DNA from: a virus
Taxonomy: Duplodnaviria; Caudoviricetes
Reading direction: 5' to 3' (one strand)
Virus record (IMG/VR): IMGVR_UViG_3300005077_000059
Location: 1-36,351 of that record
Length of the DNA: 36,351 bases
Shown: piece by piece, positions 9,030-28,568 of the stretch
Layout: each line of letters begins with the position of its first letter
Numbering within the stretch: the first letter of the stretch is position 1
Notes under the pieces: model-generated
The model's database searches: none
Told to the model about the DNA's origin: nothing
The model's input: the letters and a program-made list of their open reading frames with translations, nothing else
Translations under genes and position numbers: made by a program

Positions 9030-10541
9030 CTACGGCTCCGTGATCTGCCGGCGGAGCTCGTCCTCGAGCGCGCTGGTGGGCGTCGCGGCGCGAACCTCGG
9101 CGGCGATCTGGTCGATCACCGCCTGCGCGGCCTTGCGCCCCTCCGCATCGTCGGCAAGCCCGCGGTCGTGCATGATCGCCTCGAGGTGGCTTTCGAGCTT
9201 CAGCTCCAGCCGCTTGGACATCACCTCGAGGACTTCCTGCGTGCTGACGGGCACGATCTCGGACGCCCACTCGACGGTAACCTTCTCGCCGGGCTTCAGC
9301 TTCGCCTTGCCCGCGGCCGGGCTCTGCGCCAGCACCGCCGACGTGGAGTCGTAGAGCGCCTGCACGTGGCGCTCGTAGTTGGCGCGCTTGCGCCGCACGT
9401 GGGCGATCAGCGGCGCGTACTCGTAGTGCTTGGCCTTGCCGCTCTCGGCCTCGCCCTGTCCTTGGCCGAAGAGCGTGCCGAGCCCGTGCGTCGAGGCCGG
9501 CGTGTGGGCGAGCGAGAAGAAGAGGTTCAGCAGCGCGCGCAGCGGCTCCATCAGCACGTCGATGTTGAGCTGCCCGATGATCGAGGCGGGCGCCGTGCCG
9601 TTGGGGTCGAACTCCAGCGCCCAGCCGATCCCCATGGTTAGCGGGTTGGACGTGTTGGCGCCCTGCGCGCCGCGCGGCAGCGTGAGGATCGGGAAGTAGT
9701 GGTGCAGGTTCAGAATCACCTGCGAGAAGACGCGGTTGATCTCCTCGGCGATCTTGTAGGCCGGGTCCATGTCGCTGCGCCCGCCGAACGCGCCAGGCAT
9801 CAGCTTCGACCAGAGCAGCGCGCCCGGGATGACGCCGAATGGGTTGGCGCCGTCCAACCGCGGCTGCCAGAGCTCGCCGGTGACGGGATCCTTCGGCGCC
9901 GGCTCCTCGTCGAGCCAGACCTCCCACCGCGTCGGCGAGATCACCTCCATGCGGACCTTGGAACTGGCCTTGTCCGCCGGCACGCGCACGCCGCGGGCGA
10001 GCTGCCCGTCGACGACGTCATAGACGCCGTAGATCACGACGCCCTCGGGCCGGCGCTTGGAGCGGTTCACGCTGCCGCCGTTGTGGAGGGTGCGGAAGTA
10101 GCGCGGGTCGACGGCCTCGAACTCGATGTCCTCGAGCGAGCGGATGGGGTACTGCACGGGCACCAGGCGGTTGTAGCTCCAACCGTAGATCCCGGCGACC
10201 GTGGCCAGCATCTCCGAGTAGCCGAGCTGGTAGTCGTTGGCGTCGAGCAGCTCCTGCCAGACGTCGTTGGAGCCCTTGTCCTCCACGCTGGTCTGGACGC
10301 CGTCGCCCACCATGGCGGACGTGAGGACCTCGACGCCGGCTGCGCAGAGCGGCACGACCACGCGCGGGCGGTCCTTGTGGCGCTGCTCCGTCTCGGCGTA
10401 GAACCGCGGGAAGTACTGATCGCCTTCCAGCTCGCCGTAGTAGTGGTCCGCGAGCCGCTGCAGGTAGCCCTGCCGCGCCTCTTCGTCCTGCCGCTTCAAG
10501 AGCCGCAGGCTCTCCTGCACCAGCTGACTGGCCATGCTCAT
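9030..10541 (-). CDS. Portal protein (SPP1 gp6-like)
   Basis: 503 aa directly after TerL; LADHYYG, NPFGVIP, GRSDM and ESGKAK motifs. Confidence 0.85.
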   Translation of the reverse strand: MSMASQLVQESLRLLKRQDEEARQGYLQRLADHYYGELEGDQYFPRFYAETEQRHKDRPRVVVPLCAAGVEVLTSAMVGDGVQTSVEDKGSNDVWQELLDANDYQLGYSEMLATVAGIYGWSYNRLVPVQYPIRSLEDIEFEAVDPRYFRTLHNGGSVNRSKRRPEGVVIYGVYDVVDGQLARGVRVPADKASSKVRMEVISPTRWEVWLDEEPAPKDPVTGELWQPRLDGANPFGVIPGALLWSKLMPGAFGGRSDMDPAYKIAEEINRVFSQVILNLHHYFPILTLPRGAQGANTSNPLTMGIGWALEFDPNGTAPASIIGQLNIDVLMEPLRALLNLFFSLAHTPASTHGLGTLFGQGQGEAESGKAKHYEYAPLIAHVRRKRANYERHVQALYDSTSAVLAQSPAAGKAKLKPGEKVTVEWASEIVPVSTQEVLEVMSKRLELKLESHLEAIMHDRGLADDAEGRKAAQAVIDQIAAEVRAATPTSALEDELRRQITEP

Positions 10542-19010: not shown

Positions 19011-19490
19011 CTAGAAAGGCAGGTCGTCCTCGTCGTCCGCCACGTAGCCGCGATCGCCGCCGCCTTGCTGATGCTGCTGCGCGGCCGCCGCGGGCTGGCT
19101 CGCCGGCGGCTGCGTGGCCGCCTGCGCCTGGGGCTGCGCGGCCGCGGTCGCCACCGCGGCATCCCGCGCGCCGATCATGAACCAGCGGCTCACCAGGATC
19201 TCCGTGGACCAGCGCTTCACGCCGTCCTTCTCCCACTCGCGCGTTCGCAGGTTGCCCTCGAGCCAGACCTGCTGCCCCTTCTTGCAGTAGCGGGCCATGT
19301 TCTCGGCGGCCTTGCCGAAGAGCACAACGTGGTGCCACTCGGTGTGATCCTGCCAGGCGCCATCGCGCTTCGTGCGCTCGTTCGTGGCGACGCTGACGTT
19401 GCAGACGGCCGTTCCGCTCTGCGCGTAGCGGAGCTCGGGGTCCTTGCCCAGGTTTCCGATCAGCTCCACGCGGTTCAGTCCGATGGCCAT
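19011..19490 (-). CDS. ssb: Single-stranded DNA-binding protein
   Basis: LNRVELIGNLGKDPELRY, TEWH and EGNLRTREW motifs; acidic DDEDDLPF tail. Confidence 0.97.
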   Translation of the reverse strand: MAIGLNRVELIGNLGKDPELRYAQSGTAVCNVSVATNERTKRDGAWQDHTEWHHVVLFGKAAENMARYCKKGQQVWLEGNLRTREWEKDGVKRWSTEILVSRWFMIGARDAAVATAAAQPQAQAATQPPASQPAAAAQQHQQGGGDRGYVADDEDDLPF

Positions 19491-19491
19491 G

Positions 19492-20763
19492 CTACTTCAC
19501 CTCCACGATCTCGAGCTGCACGGCTCCGGTTTCGCGCACGTCCTCGACCCACACCTGCAGGTCGTGCTCGCGCGCGAGCTCGTCCAGGTATCTCCGGCTC
19601 GCCAGGTCGAGCACCGAGCCGTCCTTGATGCGCAGGAGCCTGAGCTCAGGCTGGCCCATCCTGGCGAGGGCGCAGGCCACGCGCAGGCGCTGCGAGGTGC
19701 TGAGCTGCGGGAAGACGACGCCGCCGACGACCAGCTCGCCGTCCTCGCTCACCTCGAGGCCGCGGATAGGCAGCTTGCGGCGCACCTTGACCATGAGCGC
19801 CTCGCGGGCCGCGCGCGCCTGCGCGAGCGCTTCCTCTTCGCGCGCGACGATGGCGGCCTGCTTATCGACGCTCTCGTGCTCGCGGACGAGCCGGTCGACG
19901 TCCAGAACCGTCGAATTGTGCTGCCGCACCCGCTCGATCTCCTGGTCGATCGCCTCGAGGCTGCCAGCGGGCTCCGGCACTGGCTTCTCGAACACCTCGA
20001 GCCGCTTCTGCAGGTCCTTCCGCTCAGCCACCAGGTTGGCGCGCTCGGCATCCAGGCGGTTGATCTTGTCCTCGATCTGAGCGATGCGCTGCTTGGCCTC
20101 GTGCGCACGAGCCACCATCGTGCTGCGGGCGCCAAAGGCCTTGAGCAGCGCGTCGCGCTTGGCCTCGAGGTCCGCCAGGTCGATGGGCTCGATCCGCTCG
20201 TCCGCCTCGAGGAGCCGCGCCGCCGCAGGCAGGTAGGCCTCGAGCTCGCGCAGGCGCACCCGCATCTCCTCGAGCAGTCGGCCCTCGACGCGGCGGCGGT
20301 CGTAGGATGCCCGCTGCCGGCCCTCGATCTCGTCGAGCTCTTCGTGCACGCCGGCGACGGCGAGCACTGCGTCGCGGCGCTCGCGCGCCGTGCCCGAGCA
20401 CCAGGCCCAGGGGTCCATGGCGATCGCGTTCACCAGCCCGTCGAGCAGCTGCTGCGGGCGGGCGAGCGTCGCCCCGTCCGCGCGCGTCACCGTGAGCGAT
20501 GCGCCCTCGGCCGTGATCCGCCGCCGGACCGTGTCGCCGTTGTCGAGCGTCAGCTCCACCGTGGCGGCCTCGGCGCCGTTGCGAATCACGCCATCCGGGA
20601 TCGCCCGCTTGCCGGCGAGCGCGAAGAGGATCGAGTCCAGGACCGTGCTCTTGCCGGACCCGCCGGGCCCGACGACGTAGATCACCGGAACGTCCGGCGG
20701 CGGTTCGAGCGTGAGGTGCTCCAGGCTGCGCACGTTGCGCAGCTCGAGGCGTTGGATCTTCAC
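19492..20763 (-). CDS. SMC/Rad50-like ABC ATPase with coiled coil
   Basis: KIQRLELRNVRS, Walker A GPGGSGKS, central coiled coil, LSTSQ signature-like motif, IKDGSVLD. Confidence 0.85.
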   Translation of the reverse strand: MKIQRLELRNVRSLEHLTLEPPPDVPVIYVVGPGGSGKSTVLDSILFALAGKRAIPDGVIRNGAEAATVELTLDNGDTVRRRITAEGASLTVTRADGATLARPQQLLDGLVNAIAMDPWAWCSGTARERRDAVLAVAGVHEELDEIEGRQRASYDRRRVEGRLLEEMRVRLRELEAYLPAAARLLEADERIEPIDLADLEAKRDALLKAFGARSTMVARAHEAKQRIAQIEDKINRLDAERANLVAERKDLQKRLEVFEKPVPEPAGSLEAIDQEIERVRQHNSTVLDVDRLVREHESVDKQAAIVAREEEALAQARAAREALMVKVRRKLPIRGLEVSEDGELVVGGVVFPQLSTSQRLRVACALARMGQPELRLLRIKDGSVLDLASRRYLDELAREHDLQVWVEDVRETGAVQLEIVEVK

Positions 20764-21866
20764 GTGGTCTCCTTCGGCCCCAGGTTGGCGAGGATGCCCG
20801 TCAGGGCCTCTCCCGCGGTGGTGAAGTCGGCCGACGCGCGGGCCCCTGGGGCTCTATCCGCCCCGCCCGCCGGCCCTCTGGCTGCCGCCGCCTGGCGGTC
20901 AGCTCGCACTTTGTTGCGCTCGAGGCGCGCGTGCTCGTCGCGGCGCCACTGCTCGCGGGCCTCTTCCTCCGGCGATCGCCGGGAGGACTCCGAGCGCCAG
21001 CGGGCGTGGAGCTGCTGGGCGTGCTCGCGGAACTTCGCGCCGATCCCGCCGCGGGCCAGGAGCACCGGCCCCCAGTGCGGGTGGCGGGCGGCCCAGCGGA
21101 TGACCTCGACGAGCTCCGGCACCGGGTACTGGCCCGCCACCACGCGGAGCGCCTCCGCGTCGTGCATCGTGAAGGTCGGCCGCGCCGCCGGATGCGCAGC
21201 CCTCAGTTCTGCCTGGAGTAGGCGCCCGAGATCGACGCCGACCGCAGGGGGCGCCGGATCCGGGCCTGCGAGCTCTGCAGTGGCGTCCGAGCCGGCGATC
21301 TGGGGCACCGGCGCCAGCGAGGCGGTCGCGGGCGCTCCTGGCGCCTCAGGCTCGACCGGTCGAGAATCGACCGCTCGCACACGCGGCCCGCCGTTGTCGT
21401 TGTCGTTGACGTTGACGTTGTCTTTGACATTGGGGATTCCAGACGGCTGGCACTTGGATGCCGGATGGCTGCCAAGTGGCTGCCGGTTGGCTGCCAAGTG
21501 GCTGCCATCGGGCGGCCCAGGATAAGTGCTTGGCTTATAGTCCCTTGCGCGGACCTTCTGGAAGTCGGCCCAGTCGTGCAGCTCGCAGTAGCGGGCGCCG
21601 CCGGCCATGTAGGTGCGGATGAGCCGCCGCTCCTCGAGCGTCGCGAGGTAGCGCTCGACCTCGTCGACGGGGCGAGGCTGGCCCTCGACGAGCAGGTAGG
21701 CCTGGGCCGCGAGCACGGCCGGCATGATGGGCAGGCGCCCGTCATCGTCGGCGTGGTCGACCAGGTACTGCCAGAGGGTGAAGGCCGGCAGGCCGATCTT
21801 CTCGTGCTTGTGCGAGTCGCTCCACACGCCAGGGTAGTGGAGCCGCGGACGGACCTTGTGCGCCAT
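20760..21866 (-). CDS. Replication initiator (replisome organizer, lambda O analogue), 368 aa
   Basis: LWQYLVDHADDDGR...LIRTY...HDWADFQK winged-helix N-terminus; internal iterons; ATG at 21866 after GAGGAG. Confidence 0.8.
   Translation of the reverse strand: MAHKVRPRLHYPGVWSDSHKHEKIGLPAFTLWQYLVDHADDDGRLPIMPAVLAAQAYLLVEGQPRPVDEVERYLATLEERRLIRTYMAGGARYCELHDWADFQKVRARDYKPSTYPGPPDGSHLAANRQPLGSHPASKCQPSGIPNVKDNVNVNDNDNGGPRVRAVDSRPVEPEAPGAPATASLAPVPQIAGSDATAELAGPDPAPPAVGVDLGRLLQAELRAAHPAARPTFTMHDAEALRVVAGQYPVPELVEVIRWAARHPHWGPVLLARGGIGAKFREHAQQLHARWRSESSRRSPEEEAREQWRRDEHARLERNKVRADRQAAAARGPAGGADRAPGARASADFTTAGEALTGILANLGPKETT
21455..21509. repeat. Five tandem 11-bp iterons TGG(C/A)TGCCnnn; probable replication origin
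   Basis: tggatgccgga, tggctgccaag, tggctgccggt, tggctgccaag, tggctgccatc inside the initiator gene, next to a lower-GC GTTGTC/GTTGAC tract at about 21393-21431. Confidence 0.75.
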
Positions 21867-21988
21867 GTTGAGCTCCTCGGGCGGCACCCTGCCATGGCCT
21901 CCGCCCCGCGTCCAGCAGGAAGTTGGGAGCCCGCCGCGGGCTCGCACTCGCGCGCGCCCCACGCCCGCGTTCCCCGCGGGCTCCCATG

Positions 21989-22054
21989 TGGCCCAGGCTG
22001 GACTCGAACCAGCCCCGCCGGGCGCAACATCCCGGCGGCCTCCCGCGCTGAGCC
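21989..22054 (-). ncRNA. tRNA-like element lacking a D-stem (66 nt)
   Basis: Acceptor GGCTCAG/CTGGGCC plus discriminator A; T-arm GCTGG-TTCGAGT-CCAGC; central stem CGCCGGG/CCCGGCG with an 8-nt loop. Confidence 0.6.
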
Positions 22055-22086
22055 AAGGCGCCGGCCTCAGCGGCCGGCGCGCGCTC

Positions 22087-23046
22087 TCATTCCCCCCTGC
22101 TCATCCCGCGCAGGCGCTCGGCCGTGCCGGAGCTCCCCCTGCGCTCAGAAGCTGCCGAGCCGAGCTCATGTGACGTGGCGTCGGCACCCTGGGGTTGGCC
22201 CGTCTCGGCATTCTCCCACGCGGCCTCGCTGATGGGCCGCCAGTCCTGATCGCTCCACTCGATCGGCCGCGCCGGGTCCGCGCCCTGCGCGAGCTCCTGC
22301 GGCTCGCCGGCCTCGGAGCGCTCGTCGAGCTGCATCGCCATGCCCATCTCCACGCTCGTGGGCACGTACTTGAAGGCGCGCCGCGTTGGGCTCTTCGCGC
22401 ACATCTCTGCGAAGTGCGTGAGCCACGGACCCTGGTAGGGCTTGCCCCTCGATCGCTTGGCGTGCTGCTGCTTGACCCAGGCGAAGACCTCGTCCAGCTC
22501 GTGGCGCTCCATGACCTTCGGCACCTCGTGCCCGCCGGCCAGCACCGGCACGCAGTAGGCCGCCACCAGCTCGCCGCGGTCCTGGCCGCGGTAGGGCTTG
22601 TGGTGGACGAAGGGTTTCCCGCCGAGCCCGTAGTCGAACTCGTCGCGGTCGTAGACGGCGTGGGCCACGATGCGCTCGACGCGCGGGCTCCGGTAGCCGA
22701 GCTCGACGAGCCCGCGGTAGCCCAGCACGAGCTCGACGTCGTAGCCCTGCCGGCGGCTGCTGTAGAAGGGCAGGAGCCAGGCGTGCCCCAGGTGCCGGCC
22801 GGGCTCCAGACCGATCTGCGCGCAGGCGACGAGCGCGCCCACGAGGCTCGGGCCGGTGCAGGCCAGCAGCTGCGGCGTGCGTCGCACCTCGTTGTAGGCG
22901 ATGCGGATGAGCCGCTCCGCGTTCAGGTGCTTGGGCAGCAGCGAGTCGATCTGCTTCTGCTGCCGCTCAAAGAGCTGCCCCAGCGTGACCACCGGGGCGG
23001 GCGACTGTGGGGCGCCGGCGGCGGCGCCCCCTTCGACGGTTGCCAT
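22087..23046 (-). CDS. recT: RecT-family single-strand annealing recombinase
   Basis: LLPKHLNAERLIRIA, QIGLEPG..LGHAWLLPF, LGYRGLVEL and PW.THFAEM motifs. Confidence 0.95.
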   Translation of the reverse strand: MATVEGGAAAGAPQSPAPVVTLGQLFERQQKQIDSLLPKHLNAERLIRIAYNEVRRTPQLLACTGPSLVGALVACAQIGLEPGRHLGHAWLLPFYSSRRQGYDVELVLGYRGLVELGYRSPRVERIVAHAVYDRDEFDYGLGGKPFVHHKPYRGQDRGELVAAYCVPVLAGGHEVPKVMERHELDEVFAWVKQQHAKRSRGKPYQGPWLTHFAEMCAKSPTRRAFKYVPTSVEMGMAMQLDERSEAGEPQELAQGADPARPIEWSDQDWRPISEAAWENAETGQPQGADATSHELGSAASERRGSSGTAERLRGMSRGE

Positions 23047-23067
23047 GGTGAGCTCCTCTCGATCGGG

Positions 23068-24009
23068 TTACGCGCTCACGGCCCGCCAGTTGGGCCGGAA
23101 GACGCGGATCTCTTGCTGGCGCGCGAAGGCCTTGGCGAGGTCCGGATGCGCCTCGCTCAGGGCCTTGCCGTCGAGCGTCGTGCGCTTCTCCACCTTCCAC
23201 GTTGCCAGGGATCGGCCGCTCGGGTCAAGTAGCTGCCCGGCTTCGCCCATGGCGCTCTTCACGGTCAGCTCGAGCGCGGATTTCTTCGCCTCGACCGCCT
23301 CGAGCTGCTCGCGGACGGCCTTGAGCTCCATGAGCGCCTGCAGCACCGCGGGGCCGGCGACCGTGCTCGCCACCGTGTTGCGCGGCCAGCGCATCGCCAC
23401 GTCCTCGAGGTCGCGCGGCTCCGGCGGCCGGCGGTCGACGACGCGCTGCCAGAACTCTGCGAGCATCGGCACCATGGCGCCGATGACCTTCTCGTCGCGC
23501 AGGACGAGATAGGCCCGGTAGTCGCGCCCGCCGATGAGGCTGGACATGTGCCAGCGCTCCCAGCCCGTGACGGCCAGGTAGTGCTGGACCTGGATGTAGT
23601 AATGCTCGGGCACGAAGGCGGCGGATCCGGCATCCACCACGCCGGGCGGCCCCCACTCGTGCGCGAGGTGGTGCCCGGCCGTCTTGCCCTCCCAGCCCTC
23701 GGGGAATCCCTGCAGGCGCCGATCGATGTGGCCGAGCAGGAAGGGGTGATCCGGATGCTTGAAGGTTGCGCCGACGCGGCGCAGCGGCTGCCCAGTATCC
23801 TGGGTCCATCGATCCGCGAGCGCGCCCTCGAGAACCTCGCCCCAGTAGACGGCCTCGTTGCCGCTCAGGTCCGGCTCTTCGGCCTCGCCGACCTTCTCGA
23901 GGTAGAGCTGCAGCGGGCTCTTGTAGGGGTGCAGCCCGAGGGCCGCCGCCGCGTCACTTCCTCCGATGCCCGCGCGCCGGGCCTCCCGTTGCTCTGCTGT
24001 CAGTGCCAT
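23068..24009 (-). CDS. YqaJ-like viral recombinase/exonuclease, 313 aa
   Basis: RRAGIGGSDAAAALGLHPYKSPLQLYLEK, GHIDR, EGKT and YYIQVQHYLAVTG motifs; ATG at 24009. Confidence 0.95.
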   Translation of the reverse strand: MALTAEQREARRAGIGGSDAAAALGLHPYKSPLQLYLEKVGEAEEPDLSGNEAVYWGEVLEGALADRWTQDTGQPLRRVGATFKHPDHPFLLGHIDRRLQGFPEGWEGKTAGHHLAHEWGPPGVVDAGSAAFVPEHYYIQVQHYLAVTGWERWHMSSLIGGRDYRAYLVLRDEKVIGAMVPMLAEFWQRVVDRRPPEPRDLEDVAMRWPRNTVASTVAGPAVLQALMELKAVREQLEAVEAKKSALELTVKSAMGEAGQLLDPSGRSLATWKVEKRTTLDGKALSEAHPDLAKAFARQQEIRVFRPNWRAVSA

Positions 24010-24229
24010 GAGCTCCTCCGTTGAGTTGGCCGAGCTGCTCCAGCAGCTCGGCTTCGGTGATGCCAAGCCAGGCAGCCAGGCTCGCCGGGTTCACGCGCCA
24101 GTGGTTCCGGGCGATCTCCACGCCCTCGAGCGCGTGCTCGGGGTCGCGGAGGTAGGCCACTACGGTCCGCGGATCCTCGATCCCCAGGAGCGCGGCCACC
24201 TGCTTGGGCTTCGGCCAGTGGTAGTTCAT
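23954..24229 (-). CDS. HTH DNA-binding protein (excisionase/HTH_17-like)
   Basis: PKQVAALLGIE.PRTVVAYL...WRVNPASLAAWL winged-HTH pattern. Confidence 0.7.
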   Translation of the reverse strand: MNYHWPKPKQVAALLGIEDPRTVVAYLRDPEHALEGVEIARNHWRVNPASLAAWLGITEAELLEQLGQLNGGAHGTDSRATGGPARGHRRK

Positions 24230-24237
24230 GGCCGCGG

Positions 24238-24267
24238 ACGCTACCGGGCCGGCCCGCCGGCTGGCAA
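24238..24267 (-). promoter_or_regulatory. Leftward promoter, probably leaderless
   Basis: TTGCCA-N18-TAGCGT ending 8 nt before ATG 24229; no Shine-Dalgarno. Confidence 0.55.
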
Positions 24268-24289
24268 GGTAAATCTGCGCGGTTCTGGT

Positions 24290-24306
24290 CGAAAATGGGC
24301 GAAAAT
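24290..24306. promoter_or_regulatory. CGAAAAT direct repeat between divergent promoters (candidate operator)
   Basis: Copies at 24290-24296 and 24300-24306, one helical turn apart. Confidence 0.4.
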
Positions 24307-24309
24307 CCG

Positions 24310-24339
24310 TTGAACACGTGGGCGCCCGCCGGGTAGATT
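24310..24339 (+). promoter_or_regulatory. Rightward promoter
   Basis: TTGAAC-N18-TAGATT, followed by hairpin GAGCCGGCC...GGCCGGCTC (24345-24367) and a GAGGAG RBS. Confidence 0.55.
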
Positions 24340-24384
24340 CCCGCGAGCCGGCCGAGGTGGCCGGCTCGAACCGAGGAGCTCGAC

Positions 24385-24849
24385 ATGGCAGAAACCCCTT
24401 CGAACGGCGACCGCCCCGGGCTGGCAGCCGCCCGCCTGGAGCGCGAGATCCGCGACGCGATCGCGCAGTATCTCTGGTATCTGAAGGAGAACGAGGCGTG
24501 CGGCGGCATACTCACGCGCGAGCACGAGCTGGCGCTGGCGCGCTTCGCGCTGATTCGGATCTCGGACGCGATCGGCCTGGCGACGCGCCGCGGGTTCCCG
24601 ATCAACGACACCTTCCGCCAGAAGATGGTGGGCCAGTATGGGCAGGAGACGGTCACGAACCACGCCGCCCGCTTCGACCTGCTGCTGCGCGGCGAGCCGG
24701 CGACGGACGATGCGATGGTGTTCGCGCGCAGGCGCGTCGAAGAGCTGCGCGCGGCGCAAGGCGTGGCCTACATCGCCGCGCCCGGGCACTGCGCCACCGC
24801 GGATGATGACGACCCGCACGGCAGCCAGGCCAGCGACGGGGGGTGCTGA
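24385..24849 (+). CDS. Hypothetical protein, 154 aa
   Basis: GAGGAG RBS; first gene of the plus-strand operon. Confidence 0.7.
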   Translation: MAETPSNGDRPGLAAARLEREIRDAIAQYLWYLKENEACGGILTREHELALARFALIRISDAIGLATRRGFPINDTFRQKMVGQYGQETVTNHAARFDLLLRGEPATDDAMVFARRRVEELRAAQGVAYIAAPGHCATADDDDPHGSQASDGGC

Positions 24850-26910: not shown

Positions 26911-26940
26911 GGGCCCGGCAGCATGGAGGCTGCCGGGCCC
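26911..26940. terminator. Terminator hairpin between convergent operons
   Basis: 12-bp perfect stem GGGCCCGGCAGC/GCTGCCGGGCCC; pyrimidine tracts on both strands (TTCTC on minus, CTCTCTCTC on plus). Confidence 0.7.
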
Positions 26941-28169: not shown

Positions 28170-28568
28170 CTAGTAGCTCCAGAGCGCAGGCCGTGGGGCC
28201 TCCTCCGCTCTGAGGGTATCGAGGTGCACGTAGCGGCCGCCCCACGGGCCGCGAGCCATGATGCCGATGCCGGAGAATCCGCGAGCGAGGGCGCCCTGCA
28301 CGATCCGATAGGCCTGCTCGCCAGCCACTGCCACGTCCACCGCCTTGCCCAGCGTGTGCGGGCCGGAGCCGGCGCTCGAGCTGGAGCCGACCTGCGCGTC
28401 GTGCTTCGGGCATCGATACGCGCTGTTGAGCTTGAAGGGAAAGCCGAGCTCGCGCCGCAGCGCCTGCAGCATGTCCATGAAGGCCTCGTCCATGAGCGCC
28501 TCGCCGCAGCCGCAGTGGCAGGTGAGCTCCTCGCGCGAGAAGTTGGGCCATCGCGTTGGCGTGCTCAC
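28170..28568 (-). CDS. Endolysin, peptidase M15 family zinc peptidase
   Basis: NFSREELTCHCGCG, SAYRCPKHD, HTLGKAVD (H-x6-D) and YVHLD motifs. Confidence 0.92.
   Translation of the reverse strand: MSTPTRWPNFSREELTCHCGCGEALMDEAFMDMLQALRRELGFPFKLNSAYRCPKHDAQVGSSSSAGSGPHTLGKAVDVAVAGEQAYRIVQGALARGFSGIGIMARGPWGGRYVHLDTLRAEEAPRPALWSY

What the first reader, a model, noticed from the sequence alone, without database searches (positions are those of the whole stretch)
21989..22054. D-armless tRNA-like element between recT and the replication initiator
Seen on the minus strand: GGCTCAG-CGCGGGAGGC-CGCCGGG-ATGTTGCG-CCCGGCG-GG-GCTGG-TTCGAGT-CCAGC-CTGGGCC-A-CA. This gives a 7-bp acceptor stem with one U-G pair and a canonical T-arm and T-loop. 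The D-arm is replaced by 10 unpaired nt, and the anticodon-position arm is non-canonical (7 bp, 8-nt loop). Known: RNase P, RNase Z and the CCA-adding enzyme recognise the acceptor/T-arm stack, as in the tmRNA tRNA-like domain. Inference: not a decoding tRNA; possibly an mRNA-processing signal that uncouples the initiator from recombination genes, a decoy for anticodon nucleases, or a decayed tRNA.
Basis: partly seen in the sequence, partly recalled or inferred. Interest (0 to 1): 0.7.

Follow-up and report, generated by a model that had tools for sequence, protein, structure and literature searches.

The report
Hairpin-flanked tRNA mimic in phage operon
Between two genes of an uncultured phage lies a 66-base tRNA look-alike with no D-arm and no usable anticodon, wedged between two predicted RNA hairpins; it likely tells the host's tRNA-trimming enzymes where to cut the phage message, but no cut has been observed.

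Summary
The element is real: 7-bp acceptor, 5-bp T-stem with a canonical T-loop, no D-stem, and an 8-bp arm with an 8-nt loop. It lies in non-coding DNA between recT and the initiator gene. One of 1000 shuffles gave this layout. Rfam and ARAGORN do not call it. One relative was found (one contig, one study). All 11 listed substitutions in 276 nt lie in or beside the element; the T-arm and 3' acceptor strand are unchanged; 3 of 4 touched pairs are kept, one by a double change; the loop differs. This argues against a decoding tRNA, an anticodon decoy or attP, and modestly against decay (P 0.01-0.08). Best reading (0.55): a cis signal at which RNase P and a 3' nuclease would split the recET-rep message into two hairpin-protected RNAs. 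There are no RNA data, and in full context a rival helix is predicted to beat the acceptor stem. This scan's AI notes report similar mimics in other phages. New variant of t-elements.

The parts
21989..22054 (-). D-armless tRNA-like element, 66 nt, G1 to discriminator A
   Evidence: variation in one relative
22048..22054 (-). Acceptor stem 5' strand (pairs with 21990-21996); U(-1)/G(+1) at the predicted RNase P site
   Evidence: both substitutions in the relative keep pairing (U.G to C-G, C-G to U.G)
22039..22047 (-). Stemless D-replacement linker with GGA (element positions 12-14), the candidate elbow partner of the T-loop
   Evidence: sequence; GGA unchanged in the relative; the elbow contact is inferred
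22015..22038 (-). 8-bp arm with 8-nt non-anticodon loop (22023-22030)
   Evidence: perfect inverted repeat I10; C17-G40 becomes G-C in the relative, G24-C33 is broken, the loop changes
21997..22013 (-). Canonical T-arm (5-bp stem, UUCGAGU loop)
   Evidence: unchanged in the relative
21990..21996 (-). Acceptor stem 3' strand, then discriminator A21989; no encoded CCA
   Evidence: unchanged in the relative except 21987 just behind it
22058..22080 (-). Perfect 9-bp hairpin ending 3 nt before G1; would be the 3' end of the upstream recE-recT RNA after a cut
   Evidence: I9; pair probability about 0.99; no substitution in the relative
21924..21986 (-). Long stem-loop with a perfect 11-bp base, starting 2 nt after the discriminator; would be the 5' end of the rep RNA
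   Evidence: I3; pair probability 0.73-0.96 in full context but about 0.01 in the isolated 3' product; no substitution, one 1-nt deletion in the relative
21914..21921 (-). Pyrimidine-rich tract predicted to pair with the element's linker in an alternative fold that opens the acceptor stem
   Evidence: prediction only
20760..21866 (-). Replication initiator-like gene (368 aa), start ATG 21866 behind a GAGGAG ribosome-binding site; four iteron-like 8-mers at 11-bp spacing inside (21466-21506)
   Evidence: homologue P0010 starts at the same Met
22087..23046 (-). recT
   Evidence: the relative's protein P0160 is 92% identical
23068..24066 (-). recE-like YqaJ exonuclease

Best explanation
The 66-nt element is a tRNA-shaped fold lacking D-stem and anticodon, in non-coding DNA between two perfect stems, and it likely acts in cis as a processing signal: host RNase P would cut at G22054 and a CCA-less-tRNA 3' nuclease (RNase Z or RNase E plus trimming) would cut behind A21989, splitting the recE-recT-rep message. 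The upstream RNA would then end in the 9-bp hairpin and the initiator RNA would begin at the 11-bp stem, so the two could have separate stabilities; the excised piece would be a by-product. Shown: sequence, non-coding position, flanking inverted repeats, and the pattern of change in one relative. Predicted: the folds. Inferred: transcription through the region, cleavage, enzymes and purpose.
For: The 12-bp acceptor/T stack, canonical T-loop, U(-1)/G(+1) and purine discriminator match the RNase P determinants in PMC10731613 (passages). PMC4919913 says the D-loop appears dispensable and that RNase Z takes CCA-less substrates (passages). These are the parts that do not change in the relative: 0 changes in 22013-21989 against 9 in 22054-22014. 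3 of 4 touched pairs are kept, one by a two-sided change, and a new A16-U41 pair becomes possible (null P 0.009-0.034 with at least 4 pairs touched, 0.04-0.08 without that condition). The two changes outside the fold fall in the short unpaired spacers (22057, 21987). Perfect stems of these sizes are rare in the window: about 0.06% and 0.08% of positions lie this close to one (thresholds set afterwards). No promoter or terminator consensus lies in the gap, and every annotated gene is on the minus strand. The acceptor stem has probability 0.98 when the transcript ends at 21985. Precedents: t-elements (PMC1920247), M. smegmatis YrlA cut by RNase P (PMC4201824), phi80 M3 and P1 C4 RNA.
Against: No RNA evidence exists. 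There is only one relative, a single 7966-nt contig from one study. In the full intergenic context Vienna gives the acceptor stem only about 0.1, and the tRNA-like fold is 4 kcal/mol above the best fold (tertiary contacts are not modelled). The isolated 3' product is not predicted to keep the 11-bp stem (about 0.01), and the predicted openness of the rep ribosome site does not change on cutting (0.52, 0.51, 0.52). A hairpin 3 nt from the cut site may slow RNase P (PMC10731613), and the window has RCA rather than RCCA. One pair (G24-C33) is broken in the relative. The near-identity of the flanks could come from recent recombination rather than selection. No such element was found at this position in 80 distant RecT loci or 80 distant AAA-ATPase loci.
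Confidence: 0.55

Rival explanations
1. A decaying tRNA pseudogene. An ancestral tRNA lost 6-8 nt at its 5' end, so that the D-stem's 5' strand took over the acceptor pairing, and what remains has no function.
For: The 5' strand sits in the register of canonical positions 9-15. tRNA-Met(CAT)-type genes share the same acceptor and T-stem (L513, L429) and align with a short deletion. Nine substitutions in 41 nt is about a neutral rate. Vienna z is weak.
Against: Pairs are mostly kept, one by a double change; 25 nt of T-arm and 3' strand are unchanged (P 0.16, 0.02, 0.004 at 7, 14, 20% divergence); both flanking stems are intact. No canonical tRNA is a close parent (best global scores about 60 among 714 unique tRNAs from a biased set). 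A tRNA origin is compatible with a present function.
Confidence: 0.15
2. A stable trans-acting small RNA. After processing and CCA addition it would act as a decoy for host proteins that read the tRNA elbow (SmpB, EF-Tu, T-arm enzymes, tRNA-targeting defence nucleases).
For: Its shape resembles the tmRNA tRNA-like domain, whose stemless D-loop and T-loop bind SmpB (PMC3968760 passages). The GGA is kept.
Against: The loop that an anticodon nuclease would read is 8 nt and differs between the two alleles. There is no G3.U70, no Ro60 gene and no promoter consensus of its own. The tight flanking stems point to a role in the host transcript.
Confidence: 0.12
3. An uncut structured leader or switch. 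The tRNA-like fold forms first during transcription and is then replaced by a larger junction in which the linker pairs with 21914-21921, tuning rep expression or gating the cut.
For: The predicted best fold of the whole gap uses this helix. The G11 change in the relative turns a G.U of this helix into A-U. The 120 nt downstream have no substitution.
Against: The change at position 16 breaks the end pair of the same helix. Predicted openness of the ribosome site does not differ between folds. At 75% G+C such helices are easy to find. A switch alone does not need a perfect T-loop.
Confidence: 0.12
4. An attP site: the unchanged T-arm and 3' strand are the duplicated 3' end of a host tRNA gene used for integration.
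For: The invariant part is exactly a tRNA 3' end.
Against: No tyrosine or serine recombinase was found in the record (CheckV completeness 54%, though it has terminal repeats). The 25-nt 3' end has 0 exact matches in the genome collection. The 5' strand keeps pairing with it. Integration here would split recT from rep.
Confidence: 0.02
5. A functional D-armless decoding tRNA, like mitochondrial tRNA-Ser(AGY).
For: The acceptor and T-arm are intact, and D-armless tRNAs exist in mitochondria (recalled; PMC4919913 mentions them).
Against: The loop is 8 nt on an 8-bp stem and changes between alleles; ARAGORN in mitochondrial mode finds nothing at default.
Confidence: 0.02

Closest known systems
t-elements of plant mitochondria (Forner et al. 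2007, PMC1920247; passages read)
   Same: Non-canonical tRNA-like folds with a conserved GGTTCRANYCC T-arm, placed between or beside genes and read as cis signals for RNase P and RNase Z.
   Different: Here a bacteriophage, with perfect stems on both sides; RNA ends are not mapped.
tRNA-like domain of tmRNA (PMC3968760; passages)
   Same: Acceptor stem, T-arm, stemless D-loop with GG, and a helix in place of the anticodon arm.
   Different: No G3.U70, no encoded CCA, no pseudoknots or tag frame; the helix is closed by a short loop; 66 nt against 230-400.
Phage non-tRNA RNase P substrates: phi80 M3 RNA, P1/P7 C4 antisense RNA, T4 gene 32 mRNA (PMC10731613, PMC11143913; passages)
   Same: Phage RNAs cut by host RNase P.
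   Different: C4 has an extended stem and no T-loop; there is no Rfam C4 match and no sign of an antisense target here; none of these is described as a T-loop element between recT and rep.
YrlA Y RNAs (PMC4201824; passages)
   Same: tRNA mimics found in phages; the M. smegmatis one is cut by RNase P and gets CCA.
   Different: YrlA is encoded next to Ro60 and has a D-arm; no TROVE gene is in this record and there is no Rfam match.

Membership tests
Canonical decoding tRNA | 7-bp acceptor and 5-bp T-stem with T-loop | tested here: met
Canonical decoding tRNA | D-stem with U8-A14 | tested here: not met
   9-10-nt unpaired linker, C at position 8; Rfam deletes the D-arm
Canonical decoding tRNA | 5-bp anticodon stem with a conserved 7-nt loop | tested here: not met
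   8-bp stem, 8-nt loop, loop differs in the relative; ARAGORN 0
tmRNA | G3.U70 alanine identity pair | tested here: not met
   pair 3 is C-G in both alleles
tmRNA | Tag reading frame and pseudoknots | tested here: not met
   ARAGORN tmRNA mode finds nothing even at relaxed score; no Rfam tmRNA hit at gathering
tmRNA | Stemless D-loop with GG beside a T-arm | tested here: met
   GGA at 12-14, kept in the relative
Y RNA (YrlA) | Encoded next to a Ro60/TROVE gene | tested here: not met
   PF05731: 0 of 1 records
t-element / RNase P-RNase Z processing signal | Non-canonical tRNA-like fold with conserved T-arm motif outside a tRNA gene | tested here: met
t-element / RNase P-RNase Z processing signal | 12-bp acceptor/T stack with U(-1)/G(+1) and 3' RCCA | tested here: inconclusive
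   stack and U(-1)/G(+1) present; 3' end is RCA in the window and RCC in the relative; the acceptor is predicted at 0.98 in the nascent RNA but about 0.1 in full context
t-element / RNase P-RNase Z processing signal | Mapped mRNA ends coincide with the element's ends | not testable with these tools
   no RNA holder listed
attP in a tRNA gene | Integrase gene and identity to a host tRNA 3' end | tested here: not met

The most novel reading that the evidence does not exclude
The whole 220-nt gap is a gated tRNA-punctuation device. The tRNA mimic folds first and can be cut by RNase P only in a short window during transcription; later the linker pairs with the tract at 21914-21921 and hides the substrate. 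The phage would thus set the ratio of initiator to recombination proteins through the host's tRNA-processing capacity, a form of regulation I did not find described for phages.
Probability: 0.12. Interest if true: 0.78.

Novelty: new variant of a known kind. Interest (0 to 1): 0.5.

Why it matters
tRNA punctuation of mRNA is established in mitochondria, and a few phage RNAs are known RNase P substrates. My searches found no paper on T-loop-bearing, anticodon-less processing signals inside phage operons. If the cuts are shown, phages reuse host tRNA maturation to divide long single-strand transcripts, and annotation tools miss these signals. This element is a compact test case, with exact predicted cut sites, two natural alleles and flanking stems. 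Its weight is limited by having only two alleles and no RNA data, and this scan has already noted the class in other phages.

Tried and rejected
Homologue hunting mostly failed. RecT and Rep in viral contigs: no relatives. T-arm pattern: 121 loci from 8 of 64 parts, nearly all canonical or degenerate tRNAs, no homologue. Linker plus T-arm: 0. Arm plus T-loop: 39 hits, no homologue. The one metagenome scan was swamped by canonical tRNAs (121 loci, 8 of 64 parts). Genomes: 0 for the exact 3' end; the looser pattern gave 115 matches in 113 loci, 94 called tRNA by ARAGORN and 21 not, none a homologue by eye. blastn against GenBank phages gave only short T-arm or chance matches. The best RecT relatives outside its own cluster are 50% identical or less. 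L318 first looked like a D-armless element before recT but is the 3' part of a larger RNA with its acceptor about 110 nt further upstream, so I dropped it as a homologue. No RNA holder was listed; this says nothing about expression. I rejected the reading with an acceptor at 22062-22056 and a true D-arm (ARAGORN at relaxed score): it has mismatches, those bases belong to the upstream hairpin, and the relative's changes destroy the D-arm-like motif while keeping the 22054 acceptor. A translational switch at the rep ribosome site had no support in folding. No covariance model or alignment-based pair count was made, because the relative is available only as a table of differences; its allele was not folded. 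Papers were read as search listings or passages only; no supplements were seen.

Full report
Observation. The window is a 36,351-nt IMG/VR virus record with direct terminal repeats, 70.5% G+C. All genes I could annotate lie on the minus strand. It has a 7-bp acceptor with one U.G pair, a 9-10-nt linker containing GGA, a perfect 8-bp arm (one pair more than reported) with an 8-nt loop, a canonical T-arm, discriminator A and no encoded CCA. ARAGORN finds nothing; Rfam tRNA gives 19.3 bits against 29; no Rfam family reaches its cut-off in the window. Folding energy alone is unremarkable (z -1.55), but the layout is not chance: 1 of 1000 shuffles reproduced T-arm, acceptor and hairpin together (descriptor set afterwards).

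Surroundings. The order is recE (YqaJ), recT, a 220-nt gap, the initiator-like gene, an AAA ATPase, ssb. The gap has no codon-position GC bias in any overlapping frame I tested, unlike the genes. The initiator starts at ATG 21866 behind GAGGAG, and homologue P0010 starts there too. No sigma-70 promoter or intrinsic terminator consensus lies in the gap. Two perfect stems sit against the element: 9 bp at 22058-22080, ending 3 nt before G1, and 11 bp at 21986/21924, starting 2 nt after the discriminator. On this strand the window has 5 distinct hairpins of the first kind and 7 of the second; about 0.06% and 0.08% of positions lie that close to one.

The one relative. A 7966-nt contig in two soil metagenome runs of one study covers 21736-24608 with 195 differing letters; its RecT is 92% and its Rep 54% identical. 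Across 21850-22125 it has 12 differing letters, of which 11 are listed, all between 21987 and 22057. The twelfth is probably the recT E310D codon near the end of the piece (inferred). Eleven in 71 nt against one in 205 nt gives Fisher P 2e-6. In element numbering: U4 to C (U.G becomes C-G); C5 to U (C-G becomes U.G); G11 to A (linker); C17 to G with G40 to C (two-sided change); G16 to A with G41 to U (a new pair becomes possible); G24 to A (breaks the loop-closing pair); the loop has a substitution and two 1-nt indels; and one change falls in each flanking spacer. The T-arm, the 3' acceptor strand, the discriminator, the GGA and both flanking stems have no substitution. A random-placement null gives P 0.04-0.08 for at most one broken pair, and 0.009-0.034 if at least four pairs must be touched, as observed. 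This is real but thin evidence, from two sequences, and the identical flanks could partly reflect recent recombination in a RecET phage.

Mechanism. The unchanged parts are those read by tRNA-end enzymes. RNase P measures the acceptor/T stack from the elbow, prefers U(-1)/G(+1) and pairs with RCC (PMC10731613). The D-loop appears dispensable, and RNase Z takes CCA-less substrates (PMC4919913). The variable part is what a synthetase, ribosome or anticodon nuclease would read. I therefore commit to a cis processing signal (0.55): cuts at both ends would leave a recE-recT RNA ending in a hairpin and an initiator RNA starting with one; end protection by terminal hairpins is general knowledge, recalled. 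Against this: in full context Vienna gives the acceptor only about 0.1, because the linker pairs with 21914-21921 and that fold is 4 kcal/mol better; the isolated 3' product is not predicted to keep its 5' stem; and ribosome-site openness does not change. The acceptor is 0.98 in the nascent RNA ending at 21985, so cutting would have to be early or helped by tertiary contacts that the model ignores. A hairpin 3 nt from the site may also slow RNase P.

Rivals. Decay (0.15) fits the likely origin: tRNA-Met(CAT)-type genes share the acceptor and T-stem and a 6-8-nt deletion would recruit positions 9-15 as the 5' strand, although only 21 of 534 short tRNAs in my biased set allow 6 such pairs and none 7, and no close parent was found. 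A trans-acting elbow decoy (0.12) and an uncut or gating switch (0.12) are not excluded. attP is rejected: no integrase and no exact match of the 25-nt 3' end in the genome collection. Y RNA is rejected: no Ro60. tmRNA is rejected: no G3.U70 and no tag.

Breadth. Folds of similar layout but unrelated sequence do occur in other phages, several just before a ribosome-binding site: L369, L379, L381, L395 among 63 loci (no null computed) and L557 among 80 AAA loci. The position between recT and rep is not conserved in distant phages: none of 80 RecT loci had a D-armless element, and L569, with the same recE-recT order, has no T-arm there. Earlier AI notes of this scan describe armless and D-armless mimics in other phages with the same reading; they are leads, not support, and none shares sequence with this element. 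The t-element comparison and paper came from those notes; I read the paper's passages myself.

Verdict. A real, selected-looking tRNA mimic that works most likely like a t-element. It is not a member of tRNA, tmRNA or Y RNA. I did not find it in print in the searches; subscription papers and supplements were not seen. New variant of a known kind; interest 0.5.

Noticed in passing
L318:1589-1736; also L367 (same contig), L374, L380, L385, L388, L401, L403, L406, L418, L427: A separate family of roughly 140-150-nt tRNA-like RNAs in 10 of 63 viral loci: acceptor stem with matching changes on both strands, a short D-like arm with UGGA, a long structured insert with a conserved module before the T-arm. 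In L318 it lies between recE and recT. Rfam gives only tmRNA at 19.6 bits for L318 and nothing at E 0.5 for four others.
   Followed up: partly
window 21466-21506: Four copies of an 8-mer at exact 11-bp spacing inside the initiator gene, like lambda-type iterons; a likely replication origin.
   Followed up: partly
window 21867-21986: The 120 nt between the element and the rep start have no substitution in the relative (two 1-nt indels), while the surrounding block differs at about 7%; strong constraint or recent exchange.
   Followed up: partly
window 21736-24608 against 19176-21600: The relative is about 93% identical over the rep N-terminus, recT and recE, but only 75-87% in the patches that align further on; mosaic exchange with a boundary early in rep.
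   Followed up: no
window, whole record: All annotated genes are on one strand, no integrase was found, and the lysis genes (endolysin 28170-28568, two holin-like genes) are followed directly by the recombination-replication genes; recE, recT and rep share nearly the same ribosome-binding context.
   Followed up: no
L363 about 2423-2550 (phage HK75 late leader): Unannotated tRNA-like fold with a D-arm, T-arm and a long insert in place of the anticodon arm, between pR' and the holin gene.
   Followed up: no
L364 about 1951-2027 and L365 about 1947-2051: Unannotated intergenic tRNA-like folds with abnormal anticodon regions in phages Toutatis and Xkcd426.
   Followed up: no
L557 about 9672-9755: Anticodon-less tRNA-like fold with a perfect 7-bp acceptor between a stop codon and a ribosome-binding site in a DNA-metabolism operon.
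   Followed up: partly
L008, minus strand, inside a tRNA cluster: A short D-armless fold (27 nt between acceptor and T-arm) that ARAGORN does not call.
   Followed up: no
window 26911-26940, 24344-24368, 24029-24052, 23009-23030: Four other perfect hairpins of 9-12 bp, all in or just before the early region.
   Followed up: no
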